Shown here: positions 6,287 through 46,878 of the stretch, in pieces
Layout: each line of letters opens with the position of its first letter
Position numbering within the stretch: position 1 is the stretch's first letter
From: Nitrososphaerota archaeon
GTDB taxonomy: Archaea; Thermoproteota; Nitrososphaeria; Nitrososphaerales; Nitrosopumilaceae
NCBI GenBank assembly: GCA_028867755.1
Contig: JAGWFT010000001.1
Location: 228,727-292,726 of the forward strand
Length of the DNA: 64,000 nt
Reading direction: 5' to 3'
Position numbers and translations under genes: made by a program
The notes under the pieces: model-generated
Told to the model about the DNA's origin: nothing
The model's database searches: none
The model's input: only the letters and a program-made list of their open reading frames with translations

Positions 6287-7972
6287 TTATTCCATGCCCA
6301 TAGGTGGCATGCCCATGCCGCCCATCCCACCCATTCCTTCCATACCACCCATGCCGCCCATTCCTCCTCCTGGTGGTCCAGAAGTTTTGGTTACTGAAAT
6401 CACATCATCAATTCTTAGAATCATGCATGCTGCTTCTGTTGCAGATGAGATTATCTGGTTTTTTACAGATAATGGTTCGAAGATATCTGTTGCATGCATG
6501 CTTGCGACTTGGCCTTTCATAACATCAATGCCAGTCCACTTGTTTCCCTTCAACTGCTTTGATCGTAATGAAGCAAGAGTATCAATTGGATCCATTCCTG
6601 CGTTTTCTGCAAGTGTGATTGGAATTACCTCAAGAGAATCGGCAAACTTTTCCACTGCTAATTGTTCTCTTCCTTCAAGTGATTTTGCCCACTCGCGAAG
6701 TTTTGTTGCAGCATAGGTTTCTGGAGCACCCCCGCCTGCTACTATCATTGGGTTTTCCATTACATCTTTTACAACCATTAATGCGTCGTGTACAGATCTC
6801 TCAACTTCGTCAACAACTCTTTGAGAGCCTGCTCTTACAAGAAGAGTTACTGCCTTGGGATGCTTGCAGCCTTCAACGAATACCCATCTATCACTCTCTA
6901 CTTTTCGTTCTTCTACCAGTTCTGCAGAGCCAAGATCCTTTTCAAATAAATCATCAAGATTTGTAATCATTCTTGCGCCAGTTGCTTTTGCAAGTTTTGC
7001 CATGTCACTTTCTTTTACTCTTCTAACTGTAAGAACTCCTGCCTTTGCAAGATAATGCTGTGCCATGTCATCTATGCCCTTTTGGCAGAACAATACATTG
7101 GCACCAGATGCAACAACCTTATCAACCATGTTCTTGATCATTCTGTTTTCCTCATCAAGAAATGACTTCATCTGCTGTGGATTATTGATATTGATCTTGG
7201 CATCAAATTCTGTCTTGTCAATCTCAAGCGCGTTGTTTATGATTGCAATTTTTGCTTTTTCAATCTTCTTTGGCATTCCACTGTGAACCACTTCCTTGTC
7301 AAGTATGATTCCTTTGGTAATGCTGGAATCCTTGATAGAGCCGCCAGCCTTTTTTTCTACCTTGATATCATCAATGTCCACTCTATATCCTTCCTCGGCT
7401 TTTTCTGCAACTGCCAATACTGCCTTTACTATCATATCTGCCAAGTTTGCAGAATCTCTTCTGACAAGCTTTGTCTGCATTGAGGTCCTTGCAATTCTTT
7501 CAAGAACATCTTTGTCAGTAGGAGAAACCTTGTCTGCTATCTTTGACAAAAGATCTTTTGCCTTGTGTGCAGCCTTTCTGTAACCATCAACTATTATTGT
7601 TGGATGAACATCCTGCAAAATGAGAGACTCGGCATTTTCTAAAAGTGCACCAGCAAGTACCACTGCAGAGGTTGTTCCATCACCCACCTCATTATCGGTT
7701 GCTTTGGAGATCTCAACTAGCATTTTTGCTGCGGGGTGCTGAACGTCAATTTCCTTAAGAATGGTGGCACCATCATTTGTAATTGTAACGTCACCAAGTG
7801 AATCTACCAGCATCTTGTCCATTCCTCGTGGACCAAGGCTGGTATGAATGATTTCTGCAATCAGTTTTGCTGCAGAGATATTATTTTTCTGGGCGTCACG
7901 ACCCTTGGTCTGTGTTGCGCCGTCTTTTAATATAACAACTGGAATTCCGCCCGATGAGGCTTGAATTGACAT
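6287..7972 (-). CDS. ths: Thermosome (group II chaperonin) subunit
   Basis: [21 protein letters not shown] and GDGTTS motifs; GGM-repeat tail. Confidence 0.97.
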
Positions 7973-35302: not shown

Positions 35303-35785
35303 CTAAGTTTCTAGTCTAAATTCCTCAAAGTAGACCTTGCCATTCTCTACTGCCTTCTTAATGCTTTTTTGTCGTGGTGAGAGATCAGCCTCTCCAGTCT
35401 TTGCATCAATGAAAGTTATCTTGTCCACCTTGTTCTCATTGAAAAGTCCGTCAAAAGCTATAAAGTCAATTGGTTCTGCTAGAAACCTGCAATCCCTTGG
35501 TTGATGGCCAAAATTGGAGACTGTAGGTGCAAGATGCTCTAGCGTCTTTCCAATATAGACCTGTTTTGATTTTTCGATGGATTCTTGGATGATCTTCTTT
35601 TTCTTTACCTCGAACTCTTCTTGTGCCTGTCTTAATTGGTCTAACAGGTCTTGAGGTGGTTTTTTACCACTGAATATTTTAAATTCGTTCAATCTGTGGA
35701 TTGCCTGACAGTCCGGACATTGGGCATAGGTGTTCCTCTCTGCTTGTATGAAGTTGACAAGCAGCTTTGCTGCAGTATTTGGCAT
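35303..35785 (-). CDS. Holliday-junction-resolvase-like PD-(D/E)xK endonuclease with CxxC
   Basis: GKTLEHLAP…RFLAEPIDFIAFDG…FIDAKTG…LSPRQ; CPDC near N-terminus. Confidence 0.8.
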   Translation of the reverse strand: MPNTAAKLLVNFIQAERNTYAQCPDCQAIHRLNEFKIFSGKKPPQDLLDQLRQAQEEFEVKKKKIIQESIEKSKQVYIGKTLEHLAPTVSNFGHQPRDCRFLAEPIDFIAFDGLFNENKVDKITFIDAKTGEADLSPRQKSIKKAVENGKVYFEEFRLET

Positions 35786-36032: not shown

Positions 36033-36779
36033 ATGAGAATTTTATTAAAACTCCGTTCATTGGAAACACAAAAATACGATATGGGCTATCATCATAAATT
36101 ACAAAGCTTTATCTATAAAATGCTAATGACCCAAGGCTTAACTCAAATCCATGACAAAAAAGGTTACAAGTTTTTTTGTTTTTCAAATATTTTTCCCTCA
36201 AATAACATGCATAGGGGTGATCTAAAAAGTCTAATTATTTCATCGCCTAATGAAAAAATAATTCGTGCGTTTGAGAGGCAGGCACAACAGATAAGATCCG
36301 ATCAATCTTCTATTATGATAGGAAATATGACATTTATTCTTGATAGATTTGAAGTTTTCTCATTAAATTTACCTGACGATAATGTAAGAATGATAACAGG
36401 AACCCCAATTATTATCAGGATTCCAAGGGAACGATATTTGAAATATGGGATTAATCCTGAAATTCCATATAATTATATCTTCTGGCGTAAGGAACATCCG
36501 ATTGAAATGTTTATTGAACAGATTGAGGAAAACCTAAAGAAAAAATATGAAGAGTTCACAACAAAACCTGTTGTAGAAGAAACAATACTTAGTAAAATAA
36601 AATTTCGAAAGCAGATATCAAATAAGATTCCACTCAAAGGAGATATTCAGACAATAATAGGCACTCTGTGGGAATTCGATTTTCATAAAAAAGAGAACAT
36701 GGATCTATTACAGTTTAGTTTAGATGCAGGATTTGGAGAGAGAAACTCTCTTGGTTTTGGATTTATGAATTTACAATAG
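36033..36779 (+). CDS. cas6: CRISPR RNA endonuclease Cas6
   Basis: KFFCFS motif and C-terminal GFGERNSLGFG G-loop. Confidence 0.95.
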   Translation: MRILLKLRSLETQKYDMGYHHKLQSFIYKMLMTQGLTQIHDKKGYKFFCFSNIFPSNNMHRGDLKSLIISSPNEKIIRAFERQAQQIRSDQSSIMIGNMTFILDRFEVFSLNLPDDNVRMITGTPIIIRIPRERYLKYGINPEIPYNYIFWRKEHPIEMFIEQIEENLKKKYEEFTTKPVVEETILSKIKFRKQISNKIPLKGDIQTIIGTLWEFDFHKKENMDLLQFSLDAGFGERNSLGFGFMNLQ

Positions 36780-36813
36780 ATATTCTTAAAAATTACAATA
36801 GGATGCTGTCTTT

Positions 36814-38304
36814 GTGGAAATAATTTTCAAAAGAACTGGAGATTTTTGGATTGATTTGGGCATCATCTCTCTTTGGACTAGATTGGCCTCACAGGCCTCT
36901 AAACGAGGATCATCATATGTTACTCAGGTGAAGAGACATGGGAGATATGGTAAAGACATTCCAGTATTGAAGGTCATACTTTCTCCCGACCAATTATCTT
37001 TGATAGCCGAAAAAGAAAATGCCATTGTGGAGGAGTTAGATAAGACTTGCGTGAAGCTTTGCAATGATTATATAAGAAAAGCAAGTACTGGCAGAAACTG
37101 GTGGTGGGGAATTTCTAATTTTTTCTTCAAAAATACAAAACCGGAATCATTTTTTAAAAATCCTGAAGATATGGTTAAAGAACAGAAAGGTAAATGGAGT
37201 AAAGAAACATGCAATTTTTGTGGCCTTGAAAGAATGGTAAAAGATCTGGGAACTACTGAACACCCATTAGTTGTAACAAGTAAAAAATTCCAAAGTTTTT
37301 ACTCTGAGTTATCTACTAGTGTAAAGATATGTAATTATTGTACATTTGTAACAAAATTTGTTCCAACAAAGTTATTCTTCAATACTGGCAGAAATGCTAT
37401 TCTTGCAATGATGTTTGAAAGCTCGGATCTAATTACTTTAAATAATTTATATATTGAATTATCACGACTTTTCGCAGAGGCAAACGAATATGGAAACTTC
37501 CCAAACGTCCTTTCTTGGACTCAATATCCTGCAGAAACTTTCATGAATTTTCTATGTGCAATAAAAATAGAAACGACTAATTCAAATATTTTAAAAAATA
37601 CTCTTGAAAAGTTAGAGAATAGTAAAGCACATGTAATAAAAGGAACACTCGGACAAGGTCTTATAATTGCTAATTATATAATTATTCCAAATCTTTTCAA
37701 GACCTATAATTTTATTGAGCATTGTGACTGGAAATCTAAATCTGGTAAAAAGTATAATGCACTGATTAATACTTTGAAATTTCTAATGGTTAAAACATCA
37801 ACAGGAATGGATACTATTAAAAGAGAGGAATTCTGTCACCGCATATTCTATAGTTATGATGTGACAAATCTCTTATTTGAATTTCTCATTGATAATAGCT
37901 TAGGGAAAAGTCAGACAGGCAATTTACCATCTGCAGGCTTTTCAGGATTTAATATAGAAGTATTTATCACTAAGTATGAAAAAATACTCGCGTACATGAA
38001 CCAGTATCAGATTGACATCTCAAAAGAAATTGGGGCTATGATTGGTGATCTAGCAAAGAAGACTGGGAAGAAATCATTATTGTATTCTCTTCGTAGTGCA
38101 AGAAACTTGAATGACCTCTTAGCGTTCATCAATGAGATTCTGAACAGCTATCTGGACATGATAATATTAGATCGAAATCACATAGATGGCCTTCTTAAGG
38201 CAATAGATAACTCCAATTGGTCCACATACAAGTCTCTCATAGGAATTCATGCAGTCTTGTCTTTCCTAGAAAATAATGAATTAGTAGAGGTAAAAAGCAG
38301 ATGA
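36814..38304 (+). CDS. cas8b1: Type I-B large subunit Cas8b1 (Cst1, CxxC-CxxC)
   Basis: N-terminal TGDFWIDLG, CNFCG and CNYC pairs; position between cas6 and cas7. Confidence 0.8.
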   Translation: MEIIFKRTGDFWIDLGIISLWTRLASQASKRGSSYVTQVKRHGRYGKDIPVLKVILSPDQLSLIAEKENAIVEELDKTCVKLCNDYIRKASTGRNWWWGISNFFFKNTKPESFFKNPEDMVKEQKGKWSKETCNFCGLERMVKDLGTTEHPLVVTSKKFQSFYSELSTSVKICNYCTFVTKFVPTKLFFNTGRNAILAMMFESSDLITLNNLYIELSRLFAEANEYGNFPNVLSWTQYPAETFMNFLCAIKIETTNSNILKNTLEKLENSKAHVIKGTLGQGLIIANYIIIPNLFKTYNFIEHCDWKSKSGKKYNALINTLKFLMVKTSTGMDTIKREEFCHRIFYSYDVTNLLFEFLIDNSLGKSQTGNLPSAGFSGFNIEVFITKYEKILAYMNQYQIDISKEIGAMIGDLAKKTGKKSLLYSLRSARNLNDLLAFINEILNSYLDMIILDRNHIDGLLKAIDNSNWSTYKSLIGIHAVLSFLENNELVEVKSR

Positions 38305-39287
38305 CAAGTAAAGCAATAACAATAGGAATACTATTCAAGGTCGAGGTAGGCAATGTTAATGCCGGGTGGACGGAAGGTGTAGTAACCATAATGAAAAAAG
38401 TTGAGCTTCCTGATGGTAATTCTCATCCATATATTTCCGGCCAAGCCATGCGAAGATATATGCGAGATACTATGCAGGATATAATAACTGGAACATCAGA
38501 ACAAATGTCTCCATCAGATCAGGCTAAAGACAAACGAGGAAAATCGCCAATCACTACCCTTGGTGATCCTAGGAAATATATCGATGATGATCTTTTCGGA
38601 TTTATGAGGGCAGTAAAAAAAGATCGGAAAGAAAAGGGTAAGGAAAAAGATGAAGAGTCTGAAATCGGTTCTACTCGAAAACGAACATCTCCATTAAGAG
38701 TATCTGCTGCATTTGGTTTTTTCAAATTTACTGGAAACAGAGATTTGGGAACAAAAAGTTCCATAGAGCATTCAGGTTCGGCTGAATCTGGCGGATCAAT
38801 TTTTGAAACTGAGATCACTAACAACATTTTCAAAAATAATCTCATGCTTGAATTAGATCGAGTTGGTGTATGGAAAGATTATGAAACAACAGATGAAGAG
38901 GGAGAGGGAAGTCTTTCGGAAATTCAAAGAAAAGAGAGAATAAAGATTATGATTAAATCGCTCAAATATCTATGGGGAGGCGGAAGACAAAGTAGATTCC
39001 TTGTTGATTTGACCCCACAATTTATCATTTATGCGAGAATGTCTAAGAAGGTTCCAATTTTTCTAAATTCTCTAAATATTACATATGAAAATTCCCAATA
39101 TTATCTAGGCTCTGCGATACAAGAGGCCCTCAAAGACTATGAACAAGACATTGAGAATGTAATTATCGGGTCCAGAGATGGATTTTTAAAAAATGTTAAT
39201 AATTTAGAAAACAATGGAAGAGCAGTACAAACCATAGGGAATGCAATAGATATGATGATAAAAGACATTGACACAGCAAAAATCTGA
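38301..39287 (+). CDS. cas7: Cas7 (Cst2/DevR) backbone subunit
   Basis: YISGQAMRRYMR, DDDLFGFM, RTSPLRVS and IFETE motifs. Confidence 0.93.
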   Translation: MTSKAITIGILFKVEVGNVNAGWTEGVVTIMKKVELPDGNSHPYISGQAMRRYMRDTMQDIITGTSEQMSPSDQAKDKRGKSPITTLGDPRKYIDDDLFGFMRAVKKDRKEKGKEKDEESEIGSTRKRTSPLRVSAAFGFFKFTGNRDLGTKSSIEHSGSAESGGSIFETEITNNIFKNNLMLELDRVGVWKDYETTDEEGEGSLSEIQRKERIKIMIKSLKYLWGGGRQSRFLVDLTPQFIIYARMSKKVPIFLNSLNITYENSQYYLGSAIQEALKDYEQDIENVIIGSRDGFLKNVNNLENNGRAVQTIGNAIDMMIKDIDTAKI

Positions 39288-40011
39288 AACTAATCAGAAA
39301 AATATACAAGCAGTTTGTCTTACTGTGAGAGGAGATTTTAATTCATATAGAATTTCTACAAATATAAAATATCAACGGAGTTATATTATTCCTACAAAAA
39401 CAACTCTAATTGGTATGCTTGGTGCTGCGCTTGGGATACAAAATAAAGAACTCGAAATTCTTTTTAAAACAGTCAAGACTAACGCTGTTTTAATTTCACT
39501 TATGGGCCGTGCAAAAGATCTATGGCTTGTAAGTAAACTAAAAGTAGATGGTAATCATGAAAAATCTCCAATAATGAGAGAAGTTCTGGTCAATCCAGTA
39601 TACATGATCTACTATCAGGCAGATAACGACATGATTTTAAAAATTATTGATGCGTTAAAAGATCCAAAATTTGTACTTAGTCTTGGTAGGTCTGATGAAA
39701 TGATAGAAATAAAAGAAATCCAAACACTAAAACTGACCGAAACAAAAGGTATAGCCAGTTTTAAAAATACAATTATTCCATTCAATTATAGAAGTCTCTT
39801 TCTTGCCTATGAAACTATGCCTGTACAAAGAGGAACAACCATGGAATTGCCAGAAGTGATTAACATACCTGTTTCTTTTGAATACGATTCAGCTGGCAGA
39901 AGAAAAGTAAGTGAGTCAAAAGATGTTACTATTATTTATGAACTTGGTATAAAATTAAAAGATTCGTCTGGAGCGTGGAGTGATGGAAAACGAAATCTAT
40001 TCCTTTACTAA
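39268..40011 (+). CDS. cas5: Cas5
   Basis: N-terminal RAMP motif (SY…SYIIPTKTTLIGMLGAALG), LSLGRSDE. Confidence 0.93.
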   Translation: MTQQKSETNQKNIQAVCLTVRGDFNSYRISTNIKYQRSYIIPTKTTLIGMLGAALGIQNKELEILFKTVKTNAVLISLMGRAKDLWLVSKLKVDGNHEKSPIMREVLVNPVYMIYYQADNDMILKIIDALKDPKFVLSLGRSDEMIEIKEIQTLKLTETKGIASFKNTIIPFNYRSLFLAYETMPVQRGTTMELPEVINIPVSFEYDSAGRRKVSESKDVTIIYELGIKLKDSSGAWSDGKRNLFLY

Positions 40012-42199
40012 AATTCTTGCAAAATCTGAACCAGAAGAGACTCTTGAGGAACACATAGAAAATGTACTCAAATTTCTCATCAAATTCATAAAATGGAAGA
40101 AAAAAGAAATAAAAAAAATATCTGAAATTACCGGCTTGCACAGAACTGAAATTCAAGGAAGATTATTTGCAACAGCATATTTACATGATATTGGAAAATG
40201 TAGCAATTCATTTCAGAGATTTATAAGAAAGGAACAATCTAACCGCTTTCCTCACGCTCTTTTAGGACTTCCCTTTATCATATCTGCAGTAGATCCGTTG
40301 TCAGTAGAAGATACAACAATTTATCCTGAAGCAATTTCAGTAATGTCCCATCATACTCCGTTTTATGATGGTCTTTACGCGTATGAAAAAGATAACCCAC
40401 CTAATAAATTTTTAATTATAAATAAAGCACTTGAATTTTATAATAAAATCGAACAATCATATTCCAATATATTCAAAGAAAAATATCCATTTCAATTAGG
40501 TAACCCAGATCTAGACTCATCGTTGTCTACCCTCTTGGAAAAAATCAAAAACCCTCTAAAATTTAATCGGCCCACACATCTTAGGGAAATTCATTCTTTT
40601 TTCGTGAATTTTTTGCATACTGTAGATTGGCTTGGTAGTGGAAAAACGTTTGATTATCAGTATTCGGTAAAAAGCATTTCCGAGAAGATTGCAAATGAAT
40701 TGAAACAAAAAAAAAGTTTGACTTCTTGGAATGAAATTCAAATTAAAGCATCACATACGTATGGCAATTTGCTTCTTTGTGCCCCCACTGGTCAGGGGAA
40801 AACAGAAGCTGCACTATTATGGGCTGATAGAAATATGTATCATGATAAGATAATTTATCTATTACCTACGCGGGTTACAACGAATGCACTCTATAAGAGA
40901 TTAAAATTCCTTGGAGATTCTGTTGGTGTATCACATGGAACTTCAGCTTTAATTATTGCAGAGGAAGAACAATGGAATAACAAAAGAATTATGGCAAGAA
41001 GATTACGTTCTGGTTCTTTTATGGAACCAATTACTGTTGCAACGGTTGACCAGTTATTATTACCACATTTTAATTGGAAGTATTGGGAAATGATTGAACA
41101 AAATGCATCTAACGCTGCAATCGTCTTAGATGAAATTCATGCATATGATTACTACACTCTAGCTTTGATCACTGAGATGATCAAAAAATTTCCACGGAGT
41201 CGTTTTGCTTATCTCTCAGCCACTTTACCAAAGTATATTCAAAATCATCTTACTAACTTGCATGAAGAAAAAATTACCACTATTGTGGACTATGAACATC
41301 TTGATTTATCAAGACATAACATACAATTTATCGAGACTACTATTGATAATTCAGTTGACGAAGTAAAACAATATTACAAAGAAGGTAAGAAGGTGTTGAT
41401 CATATTAAACACTGTCAAAGAAGCAACTCGATTTTACAAGAATTTTTTAGATCTTAATTCCATACTTTATCATTCTAGATTCATAGAGAAAGACAGACGC
41501 AAGAAAGAAGAATTAATTGAAGAAGCAAATGACAAAAACAAAGGTTGTATCGTTGTTGCTACACAGGTAGTAGAGGTCAGTCTTGATATCGATTTTGATA
41601 TTCTTTTCACTCAGATTGCACCACTGGACGCTCTGATTCAACGTTTAGGGAGAGTGAATAGAAAAGGTAAAAAATCCACAGATATTACTAACGTGAAAAT
41701 ATATGATTTTGGTGAATTTGATTATATGGTATATGGACTAGATAATCTACAAAATGCAAGAGAAATTGCGTCTACATGGTTTTCTGTTAAACATAGATTG
41801 AAAGAAAATGAAATTCAGGATTTAATAGAATGGCAATATCCACAAGAAAAAACCTCTGCTAGTTTTCTAGAAGAATGGGATAGAGTTCACGAGGATCTAG
41901 AATGGTTTAGAAATCAATTATGGGATATTCAAACTCTTCGAATGAAAGATGATATGAAGGTACTTATGAAGTTAGCAAAAACCAGACAAGATAAATTTCC
42001 TGAAATTGCTGTAATTCCTGAAATGTTCAAAGATGAAGTTAATCTCTTGCAGCCGAGTAGAAAACTTCAAGTTATTGAATATCTAGTCAAGGTACCATTT
42101 TCTCAGTTCAAGAACGGTATTAGGCCTGCAAAAGATGATTCTGATCTAGTCTTTTGTAAAATGGATTATAGCTTTGAATATGGTGCTGACGCGCTTTGA
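39980..42199 (+). CDS. cas3: Cas3 helicase with N-terminal HD nuclease
   Basis: LHDIGK, APTGQGKT, DEIH, SAT, ATQVVEVSLDID and QRLGRVNR motifs. Confidence 0.96.
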   Translation: MMENEIYSFTKILAKSEPEETLEEHIENVLKFLIKFIKWKKKEIKKISEITGLHRTEIQGRLFATAYLHDIGKCSNSFQRFIRKEQSNRFPHALLGLPFIISAVDPLSVEDTTIYPEAISVMSHHTPFYDGLYAYEKDNPPNKFLIINKALEFYNKIEQSYSNIFKEKYPFQLGNPDLDSSLSTLLEKIKNPLKFNRPTHLREIHSFFVNFLHTVDWLGSGKTFDYQYSVKSISEKIANELKQKKSLTSWNEIQIKASHTYGNLLLCAPTGQGKTEAALLWADRNMYHDKIIYLLPTRVTTNALYKRLKFLGDSVGVSHGTSALIIAEEEQWNNKRIMARRLRSGSFMEPITVATVDQLLLPHFNWKYWEMIEQNASNAAIVLDEIHAYDYYTLALITEMIKKFPRSRFAYLSATLPKYIQNHLTNLHEEKITTIVDYEHLDLSRHNIQFIETTIDNSVDEVKQYYKEGKKVLIILNTVKEATRFYKNFLDLNSILYHSRFIEKDRRKKEELIEEANDKNKGCIVVATQVVEVSLDIDFDILFTQIAPLDALIQRLGRVNRKGKKSTDITNVKIYDFGEFDYMVYGLDNLQNAREIASTWFSVKHRLKENEIQDLIEWQYPQEKTSASFLEEWDRVHEDLEWFRNQLWDIQTLRMKDDMKVLMKLAKTRQDKFPEIAVIPEMFKDEVNLLQPSRKLQVIEYLVKVPFSQFKNGIRPAKDDSDLVFCKMDYSFEYGADAL

Positions 42200-42215
42200 A
42201 TCACCATATTGTTCA

Positions 42216-42236
42216 GTTTGAATCGAACTATTGTAG
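42216..42236 (+). repeat. Inverted partial CRISPR repeat (21 of 30 nt)
   Basis: GTTTGAATCGAACTATTGTAG is the exact reverse complement of nt 10-30 of the + strand array repeat. Confidence 0.92.
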
Positions 42237-42263
42237 CCTCATTCACTAATTTTTCAATTATAT

Positions 42264-44675
42264 CTTTCAATCCTACAATAGTTCGATTCAAACATGTTTG
42301 ACCCAACTGTTTTAATCGTTTGTGTAGCAGTCTTTCAATCCTACAATAGTTCGATTCAAACAGGTTTTGTTAGATCATGTGTAGTTTTTGGTATTGTCTT
42401 TCAATCCTACAATAGTTCGATTCAAACCAGAGTAAACGTATATCTGTGTTCTTGTTTCTGCATCCTTTCAATCCTACAATAGTTCGATTCAAACTGCATC
42501 CTGGAACTGGAACAAGTTTGGCTATGACAGACTTTCAATCCTACAATAGTTCGATTCAAACTTTGCAGATGACACCAACGAATCAGCACTCTTGATCCTT
42601 TCAATCCTACAATAGTTCGATTCAAACATTGAGAAAATTCGTATGGAGCTAGAATCATCTATCCTTTCAATCCTACAATAGTTCGATTCAAACCGTTGAC
42701 ACAACTTTTTGCAACAGATGTTTTGAGCACTTTCAATCCTACAATAGTTCGATTCAAACCTCGGAGATGCCTTCGTAGGCATTGGTATGCTAATCTTTCA
42801 ATCCTACAATAGTTCGATTCAAACATGGTAGATTATTTCTGGCCGTTGCAATTGTAATCGCCTTTCAATCCTACAATAGTTCGATTCAAACCCATATCCA
42901 GTTAATCTAACCATTAATGACAATCTACTTTCAATCCTACAATAGTTCGATTCAAACACATATTCAAAAGGCCAACTGAGACAGTCATAAAGACTTTCAA
43001 TCCTACAATAGTTCGATTCAAACTCAATATACGCATATCACCACGAATTAAAGAAGATACTTTCAATCCTACAATAGTTCGATTCAAACGTGTCACCAAA
43101 ATCTCCTGGTGCATTAATGCAAGAGACTTTCAATCCTACAATAGTTCGATTCAAACTGGTGAAAAATTCACAAACACAATGACAGAAAGATACTTTCAAT
43201 CCTACAATAGTTCGATTCAAACTGGCTCGTTTGCTCCAGGAAGAGAATTGGTATGTAGCTTTCAATCCTACAATAGTTCGATTCAAACACATCTTGACAT
43301 TAACAGAACTAAACTCAAGATCAACTTTCAATCCTACAATAGTTCGATTCAAACATTTACATTCCAGCAAAACTAGAAAAGAAAGTTGTCCTTTCAATCC
43401 TACAATAGTTCGATTCAAACAATTATTGTAATGTTCTTTCTGTATGGATTAGTAACCTTTCAATCCTACAATAGTTCGATTCAAACAACTCCAGCTGGCT
43501 GGCGTCCCACAAGATGGAGCCACTTTCAATCCTACAATAGTTCGATTCAAACATGATTGTCTTATTTGTCGGCCTGCAACTACCACTTTCAATCCTACAA
43601 TAGTTCGATTCAAACTGCCTTTTGGAGAAATGAAAGATTTGACATAGTTAACTTTCAATCCTACAATAGTTCGATTCAAACTTTGACAAGAACCCTCCAG
43701 TCTCCATCCTTGGGATACTTTCAATCCTACAATAGTTCGATTCAAACGGCAATATATGTAAGCATTGTATTGCCTTTATCACTCTTTCAATCCTACAATA
43801 GTTCGATTCAAACTCTAATCATTGGCTCTTTTTTCCATTTTATGACTAGCTTTCAATCCTACAATAGTTCGATTCAAACTACTGTGATGTCCGAGAATCT
43901 TCCAAGTCTGACCTGTCTTTCAATCCTACAATAGTTCGATTCAAACCTGTGTTGTTACAGATCCAACAAACGGTCTCTGCTACTTTCAATCCTACAATAG
44001 TTCGATTCAAACGAGATTGTACTTCATTTTTACACTTGTCTCGATATACTTTCAATCCTACAATAGTTCGATTCAAACCTAGTGCAGGCTTTGTTTTCCA
44101 TCCCTTGTTACCATCTTTCAATCCTACAATAGTTCGATTCAAACCAGCTACTGCATTTACTGTACCCTCGTTTGGTGTTATCTTTCAATCCTACAATAGT
44201 TCGATTCAAACTCTATTCTCCCTAGCTCTTTTAGCAACCTTATCTTTCTTTCAATCCTACAATAGTTCGATTCAAACTGGAGTAGGGGCTGGAGTAGGTG
44301 ATGGTGATGGTATCTTTCAATCCTACAATAGTTCGATTCAAACAGGATTACCAGCAGTCAGAAAGATTTGCCATGTACACTTTCAATCCTACAATAGTTC
44401 GATTCAAACGTCTTTACTACATAATAGAAGACAGTTTCCGATGAATCTTTCAATCCTACAATAGTTCGATTCAAACTATCGAATTTCTTCGAATCCTTGT
44501 TGTATTTGAACCACTTTCAATCCTACAATAGTTCGATTCAAACAATATATTGTGTCATATTTTTATTATTTTTACTGATCTTTCAATCCTACAATAGTTC
44601 GATTCAAACTTATTCTAATATGATGTTGTCGAGGTGTTCGAATCCCTTTCAATCCTACAATAGTTCGATTCAAAC
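42264..44675 (-). CRISPR. CRISPR array: 37 identical 30-nt repeats (GTTTGAATCGAACTATTGTAGGATTGAAAG as transcribed), 36 spacers of 33-38 nt
   Basis: Repeats counted one by one; spacer lengths sum correctly to the span; ATTGAAAG 3' handle and right-side leader indicate minus-strand transcription. Confidence 0.98.
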
Positions 44676-44860
44676 CGCCAGTTTTTTCAACGGATTTATG
44701 CATACTTTAATCGATAAGCCCTTTTAGTTTTTCGGCAACCTCCAATAGTGCAGTCTACTTATAAAAGCAACTTTTCAAGCGCGTAATGCATCACAGTTAA
44801 TAATCTAGTCAGCAATTTGTCACCCATCATTCTATAGTTTTTTTATAACATATTGAATAA
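44676..44860 (-). promoter_or_regulatory. CRISPR leader / divergent promoter region shared with cas4
   Basis: AT-rich non-coding 185 nt next to the terminal repeat, TATA-like TTATAAAAG near 44759. Confidence 0.7.
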
Positions 44861-45370
44861 TTGGAGGCGTTCACAGATGCAGGCCTGACCCATACTGGCT
44901 CTGAGATTAACTATTATTTTGTATGCAAAAGAAAACTCTGGCTTTTTTCTCATAACATAGAATTAGAGTCTGATTCTGATCTTGTGCTGCAAGGTAAACT
45001 TTTGCATGAACACAGCTACAAAAGGAAATTAAAAGAGATTGCAATTGACAAGATAAAGATCGATTTCATAGAGAAAACAAATGAAGTGCATGAAATAAAA
45101 CGTTCAAGAAAAATAGAGGATGCTCATGTGTATCAGCTGCTATACTATCTGTACTATCTCAAAAAATATGCCGGACTTGACACAAAGGGAGTCCTTAACT
45201 ATCCGTTGCTTAAAAAAACTGTAAAGGTAGAGCTAACTCCACAAAAAGAAAGAGAGCTGCAAAAGATAATTCAGAAAATAGATCAGATAACAGAACTTGT
45301 AAAACCTCCAGAGGCAAAATGGATATCATACTGCAAGAGTTGTGCATATAGTGAGATGTGCTGGGGATGA
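44861..45370 (+). CDS. cas4: Cas4 exonuclease
   Basis: YYFVCKRKLW, RecB-like IDF…EIKRS, QLLYYLY, terminal CKSCAYSEMC. Confidence 0.95.
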   Translation: MEAFTDAGLTHTGSEINYYFVCKRKLWLFSHNIELESDSDLVLQGKLLHEHSYKRKLKEIAIDKIKIDFIEKTNEVHEIKRSRKIEDAHVYQLLYYLYYLKKYAGLDTKGVLNYPLLKKTVKVELTPQKERELQKIIQKIDQITELVKPPEAKWISYCKSCAYSEMCWG

Positions 45371-46353
45371 AAGATTACTATGTATTTAAAAATGGAAGAT
45401 TGCGCAGAAGCGAAAACACCATAAAATTAGAATCATCAACAGGAGAGAAAAAATCTCTTCCCATACATGATATCTATTCCATACATCTGTTTGGCGAGAC
45501 TGATCTTAACACAAAACTGATTGTATTTCTAAACCAGCACGGAATCCCGCTACACTTTTACAATTATTATGGATATTATTCAGGAAGTTTTTATCCGCGA
45601 GAAAAACTACTCTCCGGATTTCTTATCGTAAAGCAAGTACAGCATTATCTTGATTCTCACAAGAGGCTGGAAATTGCAAAAGAATTTGTCAGAACATCTA
45701 TACATAACATTCTCTCGAATTTACAACAATACAGCAAGAGAGGCAAAGACATGGGCGAATTCATCTCAAGAATTAAAGGTGAATCTGAGGCCATTGAGGG
45801 AGTAACCAATATTCCAGAACTTATGGGAGTAGAAGGCAGATCAAGGCAGGCATACTTCTCCTCCTTTGATTCATTTTTAAGAAAGGGATTCGAGTTTGAA
45901 AAAAGAACCAAGCTTCCTCCCCAGAACATGCTTAATAGCCTGATATCATTTGGAAATTCTTTGCTTTATGCTACAATACTTACAGAAATCTACCATACGC
46001 AGCTCACGCCAACTATAAGTTATCTTCACGAACCAGGCGAGAGGAGATACTCTCTTTCTCTTGATATAAGTGAGATATTCAAACCTATCATAGTAGACAG
46101 GGTCATCTTTAATCTTATCAATAACAGAATCATAAAACCAGAACACTTTGACAACAAGCTAAAAGCCAGTTTTCTAAACGAACAAGGAAGAAAGATCTTT
46201 GTATCTGAATACAAGAAGAAGCTTGAAACTACAGTTCACAATACCACCTTAAAGAGAAATATCAGCTATCAGCGCCTGATAAGAATAGAATGCTTCAAGC
46301 TAATCAAACACATACTTGATGAACGAGCCTACAAAGGCCTTAGGAGCAAATGA
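45358..46353 (+). CDS. cas1: Cas1 integrase (type I-B)
   Basis: MGVEG, NSLISFGN, SYLHEP and LSLDISEIFKP motifs. Confidence 0.97.
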   Translation: MLGMKDYYVFKNGRLRRSENTIKLESSTGEKKSLPIHDIYSIHLFGETDLNTKLIVFLNQHGIPLHFYNYYGYYSGSFYPREKLLSGFLIVKQVQHYLDSHKRLEIAKEFVRTSIHNILSNLQQYSKRGKDMGEFISRIKGESEAIEGVTNIPELMGVEGRSRQAYFSSFDSFLRKGFEFEKRTKLPPQNMLNSLISFGNSLLYATILTEIYHTQLTPTISYLHEPGERRYSLSLDISEIFKPIIVDRVIFNLINNRIIKPEHFDNKLKASFLNEQGRKIFVSEYKKKLETTVHNTTLKRNISYQRLIRIECFKLIKHILDERAYKGLRSK

Positions 46354-46617
46354 ATGTACGTGATTATTGTTTATGATATCGAGGTGGAAAGAATTGATGC
46401 GGTCAGGCATATATTAAAACAATATCTGACGTGGATACAAAACTCTGTCTTTGAAGGAGAGATAACAGAGGGTCATCTTGAAGAATTAGGATTCAAGCTG
46501 TTTGAGCTCATAGAGAAAGAAAAGGATTCTATAATTGTTTATTCAATAAATAATCCATCGTGGATAAAAAAAAGAGTCTGGGGCAAAGAAAAGAATATGA
46601 CAACAAATATTTTGTAG
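46354..46617 (+). CDS. cas2: Cas2
   Basis: VIIVYDI and WIQNSVFEG motifs. Confidence 0.96.
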   Translation: MYVIIVYDIEVERIDAVRHILKQYLTWIQNSVFEGEITEGHLEELGFKLFELIEKEKDSIIVYSINNPSWIKKRVWGKEKNMTTNIL

Positions 46618-46878
46618 ATATACAAACATTAGGTTGAACTACACGTAATAGCCTTTTCAACATAAAGCATTCATCAAAACAAGGATTGAAACATGTCTAA
46701 TAACAATTAAACAACGATGAAAATGTGGGGATGCTTCCAAAAGGAAGCCACCTGAACACGGTTATGAAGACAAACCGTGTAATCTGAGCTTGTCATTGTT
46801 TTTCTGATATAAAAGTTATACTCGAGATAGGTTTCCAGCATTCTATATAATTTAATTTGTAATTCTTTTGATAGTTTG

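What the first reader, a model, noticed from the sequence alone, without database searches (positions are those of the whole stretch)
42194..42293. Perfect 21-nt anti-repeat plus a degenerate tandem copy at the CRISPR trailer, overlapping the cas3 stop
Seen: 27 nt outside the terminal repeat is GTTTGAATCGAACTATTGTAG (42216-42236), an exact inversion of 21 of 30 repeat nt. A second degenerate copy lies 22 nt to its left (42194-42212, CTTTGAATCACCATATTGT, 14/19 identical) and contains the cas3 TGA. The gap also holds TTTCAAT (42252-42258), the 3'-handle motif. In the pre-crRNA the last repeat and anti-repeat would form a 21-bp stem. In the cas mRNA 3' end it is a sense repeat truncated one base before the expected Cas6 cut site (8 nt from the repeat 3' end). 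Established: type I-B systems use no tracrRNA. Inference: possible roles are a bidirectional terminator for convergent transcripts, a Cas6-binding decoy or feedback site on the cas mRNA, a cis anti-repeat that blocks processing of the trailer repeat, or a scar of array inversion.
Basis: partly seen in the sequence, partly recalled or inferred. Interest (0 to 1): 0.75.

Follow-up and report, generated by a model that had tools for sequence, protein, structure and literature searches.

The report
Inverted repeat copy capping CRISPR array
Just past the old end of this archaeon's CRISPR array sits an inverted copy of two-thirds of the repeat; four related lineages keep it, it can fold a 21-bp hairpin with the last repeat, and it may silence that repeat or be a preserved recombination scar.

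Summary
A perfect 21-nt inverted copy of repeat positions 1-21 lies at 42216-42236. It is 16 nt after the cas3 stop and 27 nt before the terminal repeat of a 37-repeat type I-B array transcribed on the minus strand. The genome is probably a Nitrosotalea (Nitrosopumilaceae).

It is not private and not an assembly artefact. Three other lineages (four further assemblies) with Cas3 89-97% identical carry it: 21/21, 21/21 and 20/21. Neutral sites in cas3 have diverged 20-24% over the same span, so at most one change in 21 nt has P about 0.0015. It was not found in 398 other family genomes or in more distant loci.

It travels with the interference genes. The array and the adaptation genes have a separate history, so the element marks a module junction. 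The 21-bp hairpin is the predicted minimum-energy fold on both strands in every lineage. No compensatory changes exist, and gene conversion from the array repeats could also explain the conservation.

Best reading (about 0.4): a trailer-repeat hairpin that sequesters the intact terminal repeat, analogous to the leader-repeat hairpins that block extraneous crRNAs in types II-A and VI. Main rival (about 0.4): an inert inverted-duplication scar. The array-inversion reading is not supported. The degenerate second copy is only marginally above chance.

The parts
36033..42199 (+). Type I-B interference module: cas6, cas8b, cas7, cas5, cas3 (cas3 = 39980-42199)
   Evidence: Pfam hits Cas6_C, Cas_CXXC_CXXC, DevR/Cas7, Cas5, and Cas3 HD+DEAD+Cas3-like_C. 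The anti-repeat is inherited together with this module.
42194..42212 (+). Degenerate repeat-like stretch that overlaps the cas3 stop codon (TGA 42197-42199)
   Evidence: 14/19 to repeat positions 1-19 in the sense reading, local chance about 0.01. Over 30 nt it scores 18/30 in both orientations, which is chance level. It is shared with L024 and L027 but absent from L025, whose cas3 keeps the C-terminus seen in the outgroup.
42216..42236 (+). Anti-repeat: perfect copy of repeat positions 1-21 in the orientation of the cas operon, inverted relative to the array
   Evidence: Conserved 21/21 in L024 and L025/L026 and 20/21 in L027/L031. P(at least 20 of 21 identical) = 0.0015 at the 4-fold-site rate.
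42237..42263 (.). 27-nt gap; with repeat positions 22-30 it forms the 36-nt hairpin loop
   Evidence: Its first 15 nt are shared with L024 and L027; the rest is variable and the gap is 22-30 nt long in relatives. L025 has an unrelated gap that begins with a disrupted copy of the repeat's 3' end.
42264..42293 (-). Terminal (trailer-end, oldest) repeat, 30/30 identical to the consensus; the other arm of the hairpin
   Evidence: The 21-bp stem is the predicted MFE structure on both strands (z = -4.9 and -5.0 in the window) and in all lineages.
42264..44675 (-). CRISPR array: 37 repeats of 30 nt, spacers of about 36-38 nt, transcribed on the minus strand
   Evidence: Orientation rests on the 3'-terminal ATTGAAAG tag motif, on a leader at 44676-44860 homologous to the cas2-proximal leaders of canonical loci, and on decayed terminal repeats at the opposite end in G199 and L030.
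44676..44860 (-). Leader with a TATA-like box (about 44758-44766) pointing into the array; cas4 starts divergently at 44861
   Evidence: Leader alignment with G199 and L027 shows a conserved TATA box and a downstream GGAGGTTG-type motif, both also present in L029 and L030.
44861..46617 (+). Adaptation module cas4, cas1, cas2
   Evidence: Pfam. Its history differs from that of the interference module: against L027, cas1 is 79% identical (aa) with 4-fold identity 0.49, versus cas3 at 89% and 0.80.

Best explanation
The 21-mer is an inherited, inverted partial copy of the CRISPR repeat. It belongs to the 3' flank of the cas6-cas3 interference module and faces the trailer end of a convergently transcribed array. 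An RNA reading through this junction from either side contains both arms and is predicted to fold a 21-bp hairpin. In the pre-crRNA (minus strand) that hairpin locks positions 1-21 of the intact terminal repeat into a duplex ending one nucleotide before the expected Cas6 cut. In lineage L025/L026 the pairing extends over the cut site and the tag. The proposed effect is that the terminal repeat is not recognised or cut. No 'extraneous' crRNA, whose guide would be trailer sequence and cas3 antisense, is then made or loaded into Cascade, and the transcript end is capped by a stable stem. The same stem at the end of the cas mRNA would mark the border between the two convergent transcription units. 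Shown here: the sequence, its inheritance, its excess conservation and the predicted fold. Inferred: transcription through the junction, the block of Cas6 and any fitness benefit.
For: (1) The element is perfect and unique in the genome. (2) It is present in all four known lineages of this Cas3 clade that reach an array. (3) One change in 21 nt across lineages whose 4-fold sites are identical in only 65% of cases gives P = 0.0015; only 18% of 21-nt windows of cas5-cas3 coding DNA are as conserved. In L025 both flanks are non-homologous while the 21 nt are identical. (4) In two separate lineages, integrity ends at the same boundary between positions 21 and 22: the sequence is replaced in the window group and carries a 5-nt insertion in L025. 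The part that would let Cas6 cut the sense copy is therefore lost twice. (5) The hairpin is the MFE structure on both strands in every lineage. (6) It survived an exchange of the array and adaptation module in L027 and still pairs at 19 Watson-Crick pairs plus 1 G-U of 21. (7) The terminal repeat is intact in all four carriers, whereas in G199 and L030, which lack the element, the terminal repeat has lost its 3' tag. (8) Precedent: hairpins between a flank and the outermost repeat block extraneous crRNAs in types II-A and VI (PMC13187072), and terminal-repeat mutations do so in V-A (PMC6610086).
Against: No compensatory change supports the stem: there are 0 covarying pairs, and the two differences in L027 give one A.C mismatch and one G.U. 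Three of the four carriers have arrays with the same repeat, so gene conversion from the 37 array repeats could maintain identity without any RNA function. The only lineage with a different array repeat (L027) shows 1 change, close to the neutral expectation for its branch. The element is confined to one small clade: it was not found in 398 other family genomes, in the genome collection or in more distant Cas3 relatives. G177 and G194 keep intact terminal repeats without any anti-repeat. In the window lineage the Cas6 cut site itself stays unpaired. With 36 spacers, one extra crRNA is a small cost. There are no transcript data.
Confidence: 0.4

Rival explanations
1. It is an inert scar. An inverted duplication of the terminal repeat, by template switching or illegitimate recombination, arose once at the junction where interference modules and array-plus-adaptation modules are exchanged. 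It has persisted by descent, kept identical by occasional gene conversion from the array repeats.
For: The element sits exactly at a module border. Against G199, the adaptation side and both outer flanks are 79-85% identical in DNA, but cas6-cas3 is unrelated (G199 is unpublished). Against L027, the interference side is close and the adaptation side is far. Repeat debris marks other borders too: a conserved 12-nt repeat end after cas2; a solitary repeat before cas6 in G199 and a repeat at the contig start upstream of cas6 in L028; and a decayed antisense repeat after cas3 in L028. There is no covariation. The distribution is rare and limited to one clade. The 3' third of the copy has decayed or been replaced.
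Against: Without gene conversion, so little change has P about 0.0015-0.004. In L027 the element was not converted to the local array's repeat variant, so conversion is not continuous. In L025 the first 21 nt are perfect while the adjoining 9 nt carry two indels, which a conversion tract spanning the whole repeat would have repaired.
Confidence: 0.4
2. It acts in the cas mRNA, not the pre-crRNA. The sense copy of repeat positions 1-21 in the cas3 3' UTR binds Cas6 without being cut, because the cleavage site and tag are missing. That would give feedback on, or stabilise, the cas6-cas3 transcript.
For: The copy is in the sense orientation 2-18 nt after the cas3 stop and is inherited with the interference module, not with the array. 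The portion needed for cleavage has been lost or disrupted in both sub-lineages.
Against: Nothing here shows which repeat nucleotides this Cas6 binds. In cas mRNA that reads on into the array the copy would be buried in the same 21-bp stem. T-runs that could end archaeal transcripts lie upstream of the copy in L024 and L027, which may exclude it from the mRNA.
Confidence: 0.1
3. It is a terminator or insulator for the convergent cas and CRISPR transcription units, acting during transcription.
For: Its position between the two converging units and its very stable stem.
Against: No terminator-like site was found, and no T-run follows the stem on either strand. Archaeal termination depends on T-tracts, not hairpins (established knowledge). 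The T5-T6 runs on the plus strand lie in the loop (window), before the stem (L024, L027) or are absent (L025).
Confidence: 0.05

Closest known systems
Leader-repeat hairpins that block extraneous crRNA (ecrRNA) formation in type II-A and type VI-B/E-J systems (PMC13187072 and the work it cites)
   Same: A sequence just outside the array is complementary to the one outermost repeat that has no invader-derived guide. The predicted intramolecular hairpin competes with recognition of that repeat, and the hairpin recurs in related loci.
   Different: Here the complementary sequence lies in the trailer, not the leader, and the system is class 1 type I-B with Cas6 processing in an archaeon. The arm is an exact 21-nt copy of the repeat and is inherited with the cas3 gene. 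There is no experimental support and no covariation. That paper states that repeat-guide systems usually rely on mutated terminal repeats instead.
Mutated or degenerate terminal repeats that prevent ecrRNAs (type V-A, PMC6610086; survey of repeat mutations, PMC12839519)
   Same: They address the same presumed problem, an extra repeat at the old end of the array. Relatives G199 and L030 use this solution: their terminal repeat has lost the 3' tag.
   Different: In the window lineage the terminal repeat is 30/30 intact and a second, inverted copy lies beside it.
tracrRNA anti-repeat of type II systems
   Same: A stretch complementary to the CRISPR repeat lies next to the array.
   Different: There is no cas9 and the locus is a complete type I-B. 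The pairing would be in cis within one transcript, and nothing like a tracrRNA body follows.
CreA/CreR-type degenerate mini-arrays of type I systems (crRNA-like regulators; my knowledge of Li et al. 2021, cited in PMC13187072)
   Same: They are solitary repeat-derived sequences beside Cascade genes.
   Different: Those keep the 8-nt tag and a spacer-sized pseudo-spacer that matches a promoter. This copy lacks the tag, and the two sense copies are 22 nt apart, not a spacer length.

Membership tests
Flank-repeat hairpin that blocks ecrRNA production | Flanking sequence complementary to the outermost, ecrRNA-forming repeat | tested here: met
   21/21 complementarity to the terminal repeat, 27 nt away. 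For class 1 systems the ecrRNA-forming repeat is the last one (PMC13187072).
Flank-repeat hairpin that blocks ecrRNA production | Hairpin predicted and recurrent in related systems | tested here: met
   It is the MFE structure in all four lineages on both strands, but only within one small clade.
Flank-repeat hairpin that blocks ecrRNA production | Pairing maintained by compensatory change | tested here: not met
   0 of 21 pairs covary. L027 has one A.C mismatch and one G.U.
Flank-repeat hairpin that blocks ecrRNA production | Hairpin occludes the nuclease's binding or cleavage site | tested here: inconclusive
   The stem covers repeat positions 1-21 and the expected cut after position 22 is unpaired in the window. 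In L025/L026 the pairing extends over the tag. The binding determinants of this Cas6 are unknown.
Flank-repeat hairpin that blocks ecrRNA production | Loss of the hairpin releases an ecrRNA | not testable with these tools
   This needs RNA mapping or in vitro Cas6 assays.
tracrRNA (type II) | Association with cas9 and a type II locus | tested here: not met
   cas6, cas8b, cas7, cas5, cas3, cas4, cas1 and cas2 are present and cas9 is not.
CreA/CreR-type mini-array | Pseudo-repeat that retains the 8-nt 5' tag, followed by a spacer-sized pseudo-spacer | tested here: not met
   The copy stops at position 21 and lacks ATTGAAAG. The second copy lies 22 nt upstream.
Degenerate terminal repeat | Same orientation as the array, one spacer length beyond the last good repeat | tested here: not met
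   The 21-mer is in the opposite orientation. The stretch 42194-42223 can be read as an array-sense repeat at 18/30 with a 40-nt spacer, but that score is at chance level.
Intrinsic terminator | Stem followed by a T-run | tested here: not met
   0 terminator-like sites in 41900-42600, and no T-run follows either arm.

The most novel reading that the evidence does not exclude
A type I (class 1) CRISPR system keeps its last repeat intact and silences it with a cis-encoded trailer anti-repeat. This would be the trailer-end counterpart of the leader-repeat hairpins of Cas9 and Cas13 systems. The silencer is carried by the interference-gene cassette, so a cassette arriving next to a compatible array brings its own cap for that array.
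Probability: 0.3. Interest if true: 0.7.

Novelty: new variant of a known kind. Interest (0 to 1): 0.5.

Why it matters
Every CRISPR array has one repeat too many, and recent work shows that several systems actively prevent it from yielding a useless guide RNA. For the common class 1 systems the only known remedy is decay of the last repeat. A conserved trailer anti-repeat would be a second remedy, arrived at independently, in ammonia-oxidising archaea whose CRISPR biology is almost unstudied. It would also give array designers a simple cap for type I arrays. If it proves inert, the locus still documents cleanly how interference and adaptation modules of one CRISPR locus are swapped at the array's old end, leaving repeat fragments as border marks.

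Tried and rejected
1. Array inversion is rejected: relatives without the element have the same array-leader-cas4 orientation.
2. Assembly artefact is rejected: four other assemblies show the arrangement.
3. I looked for more carriers and found none. A Cas3 scan of genome contigs gave no relatives. The hairpin pattern had 0 matches in genome contigs, and its one match in metagenome contigs is the same strain as L027. It was in 0 of 398 family genomes. A search for short Cas3 C-terminal fragments gave only 43-44% relatives.
4. More distant Cas3 relatives (L029, L030, L033-L035) have no repeat copy after cas3; their adaptation genes or array, where visible, follow cas3 in the same orientation.
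5. The CreR-like reading of the repeat fragment after cas2 found no seed match of its downstream sequence to any promoter region of its own locus in three lineages.
6. Rfam gave only sub-threshold CRISPR-DR2 hits and spurious miRNA-precursor hits that reflect a long hairpin.
7. The sigma-70 and terminator scan is uninformative for an archaeon and found no terminator.
8. Neither the literature searches nor the earlier notes of this scan turned up a trailer anti-repeat in a type I system.
9. The TTTCAAT motif in the gap is dismissed because relatives do not conserve it.
Full report
WHAT IS THERE

The window carries a complete type I-B locus. On the plus strand lie cas6 (36033-36779), cas8b (36814-38304), cas7 (38301-39287), cas5 (39268-40011) and cas3 (39980-42199). 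A 37-repeat CRISPR array follows at 42264-44675, then a 185-nt leader (44676-44860), then cas4, cas1 and cas2 (44861-46617, plus strand) (Pfam; repeats).

The array is transcribed on the minus strand, for three reasons:
- Read that way, the repeat ends in the class 1 tag motif ATTGAAAG.
- The leader next to 44675 has a TATA-like box and a downstream motif. These align with the leaders of G199 and L027, and with the cas2-proximal leaders of canonical loci L029 and L030.
- In relatives the opposite end carries decayed repeats.

The cas6-cas3 operon and the array therefore converge, and 42264-42293 is the terminal (oldest) repeat. A protein in the window shares a 90% cluster with a protein that NCBI names as from Nitrosotalea sp.. 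Distant Cas3 hits are named Nitrosopumilus or Nitrososphaeraceae. The host is therefore probably a Nitrosotalea (Nitrosopumilaceae).

THE OBSERVATION

42216-42236 on the plus strand is a perfect copy of repeat positions 1-21 in the orientation of the cas operon, that is, inverted relative to the array.
- It starts 16 nt after the cas3 stop and ends 27 nt before the terminal repeat.
- In the whole genome the 21-mer occurs 37 times on one strand and once on the other; a reversed control gives none.

The proposed second copy (42194-42212, 14/19) contains the cas3 TGA as stated, but its support is marginal:
- Scores that high are rare in the window (5 per 61 kb on both strands). One within 60 nt is expected about 0.01 times.
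- Over 30 nt the same stretch scores 18/30 in both orientations, because the repeat resembles its own reverse complement. That score is at chance level.

The TTTCAAT in the gap is not conserved in relatives.

IS IT INHERITED?

Close Cas3 homologues exist only in metagenome-derived assemblies: P0001 (97%), P0002 (89%), P0003 (89%) and P0004 (70%). Their contigs show the following.
- L024 (97%): the 21-mer is identical, 18 nt after the stop, with a 22-nt gap and then the array's terminal repeat.
- L025/L026 (89%): the 21-mer is identical and lies 2 nt after the stop. A 5-nt insertion follows, then a slightly altered copy of the repeat's last 9 nt. This is a nearly full sense repeat. The array begins 14 nt later.
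- L027 (89%; L031 from JGI is the same strain): the match is 20/21, with a 24-nt gap. A full array follows, with leader, cas4, cas1 and cas2.
- L028 (70%): there is no anti-repeat. A decayed repeat in array orientation lies 1 nt after the cas3 stop, with no array after it.

The element is thus present in every known member of the 89-100% Cas3 clade, in assemblies from four different sources. It was not found in:
- 398 other genomes of the family;
- the genome collection;
- Cas3 relatives at 43-51% identity. Their adaptation genes or array, where visible, follow cas3 in the same orientation, and no repeat copy lies after cas3.

CONSERVATION

Four-fold degenerate sites of cas3 are 76-80% identical between the three deep lineages. 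They are identical in all four sequences at 65% of sites.
- At that rate the chance that at least 20 of 21 sites stay identical is 0.0015.
- Even in cas5-cas3 coding DNA only 18% of 21-nt windows have at most one variable column.
- Within the window/L024/L027 subgroup the flanks are about as conserved as the 21-mer. The signal rests mainly on L025, where both flanks are unrelated but the 21 nt are identical.
- L025 and the outgroup L028 share a Cas3 C-terminus that the subgroup has replaced.
- Integrity ends between positions 21 and 22 in both sub-lineages: the sequence is replaced in one and interrupted by an insertion in the other.

MODULE HISTORY

- Against L027, cas5 and cas3 are 92% and 89% identical (4-fold identity 0.88 and 0.80). 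By contrast cas4, cas1 and cas2 are 70-79% identical, with 4-fold sites near saturation (0.28-0.49). L027's array also uses a repeat variant that differs at position 18.
- Against the congeneric G199, the reverse holds. Leader, adaptation genes, repeat and both outer flanks are 79-85% identical in DNA, while cas6-cas3 is unrelated. G199 is an unpublished genome, and these statements rest on it.
- In G177 and G194 the unit of array, leader and divergent cas4-cas1-cas2 recurs with other neighbours.

The interference module and the array-plus-adaptation module are therefore exchanged independently, and the junction is the array's old end. The anti-repeat travels with cas3, not with the array. In L027 it keeps the window-type base at position 18 although the local array differs.

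Repeat fragments mark other borders as well:
- a 12-nt repeat 3' end, 45-65 nt after cas2, conserved in the window, L027 and G199;
- a solitary degenerate repeat directly before cas6 in G199, and a repeat at the contig start upstream of cas6 in L028.

STRUCTURE

RNAfold predicts the 21-bp stem as the minimum-energy structure on both strands in all lineages.
- In the window the energies are -37.0 and -42.4 kcal/mol for 151-nt stretches (z about -5).
- In L026 the pairing extends over the tag region.
- RNAalifold finds 21 pairs. None covary, one is broken (A.C) and one is G.U, both in L027.
- No terminator-like site is found, and no T-run follows either arm.

INTERPRETATION

Two readings remain about equally likely.

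(a) A functional hairpin between the trailer and the terminal repeat.
- The literature shows that arrays carry one repeat that would yield an extraneous crRNA, and that for class 1 systems it is the last repeat.
[quoted passage not shown] Repeat-guide systems usually let the last repeat decay (PMC13187072; PMC6610086; PMC12080349).
- Here the four carriers keep a perfect terminal repeat beside an anti-repeat. G199 and L030 lack the anti-repeat and have a terminal repeat without its tag.
- However, G177 and G194 have intact terminal repeats and no anti-repeat.

(b) An inert scar of an inverted duplication at a recombination-prone border, kept identical by gene conversion from the 37 array repeats.
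- Nothing here excludes this for the three carriers whose arrays share the repeat.
- L027, the only informative lineage, shows one change, close to neutral expectation for one branch.
- Against conversion as the sole cause: L027 was not converted to its array's variant, and L025 keeps indels in the adjoining 9 nt.

A Cas6 decoy on the cas mRNA and a transcription terminator are minor rivals. The array-inversion idea is rejected.

VERDICT

The feature is real, inherited and restricted to one lineage. It shows excess conservation of uncertain cause and has a plausible, testable mechanism with a published analogue at the other end of other CRISPR types. I did not find it described for type I in the papers searched. 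This scan's earlier notes list the same stretch only as another first reading of this genome.

Noticed in passing
window 46681-46692 (also L027:6338-6349 and the reverse strand of L011 near 6963-6974): A 12-nt copy of the repeat's 3' end, including the 8-nt tag, lies 45-65 nt after the cas2 stop in the cas sense. It is conserved in the window, L027 and G199 although the surrounding sequence differs. It may be a relic of the canonical cas2-leader-array position or a crRNA-like regulator. Its downstream sequence has no seed match to promoters of its own locus.
   Followed up: partly
L015:7368-7397 (minus strand; G199, unpublished) and L028:1-30: A solitary 25/30 repeat in the cas sense lies immediately upstream of cas6 in G199. 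A 29/30 repeat in the same orientation sits at the contig start, 128 nt upstream of cas6, in L028. In both, the interference cassette is bracketed by inverted CRISPR repeats.
   Followed up: partly
window 36033-46617 compared with L027 and with L011/L015: The interference and adaptation modules of this I-B locus have different histories. The breakpoints lie at the array's old end and upstream of cas6. The flanking resolvase-like gene (35303-35785) is 85% identical to G199.
   Followed up: yes
L034:5830-6500: In a distant relative (Cas3 44% identical), the array after cas3 holds three copies of an element of roughly 200-330 nt where spacers should be. Each copy begins with a small GC-rich hairpin.
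   Followed up: no
L014:7540-7625 (G131, same genus): A mini-array lies upstream of a 1167-aa ORF, far from any array found with this repeat. It consists of a decayed repeat end, a 38-nt spacer and one full repeat.
   Followed up: no
window 39758-39787 (minus strand, inside cas5): A 20/30 match to the repeat lies inside the cas5 coding sequence and is conserved in L024, L025, L027 and L028. It is probably chance plus coding constraint.
   Followed up: no
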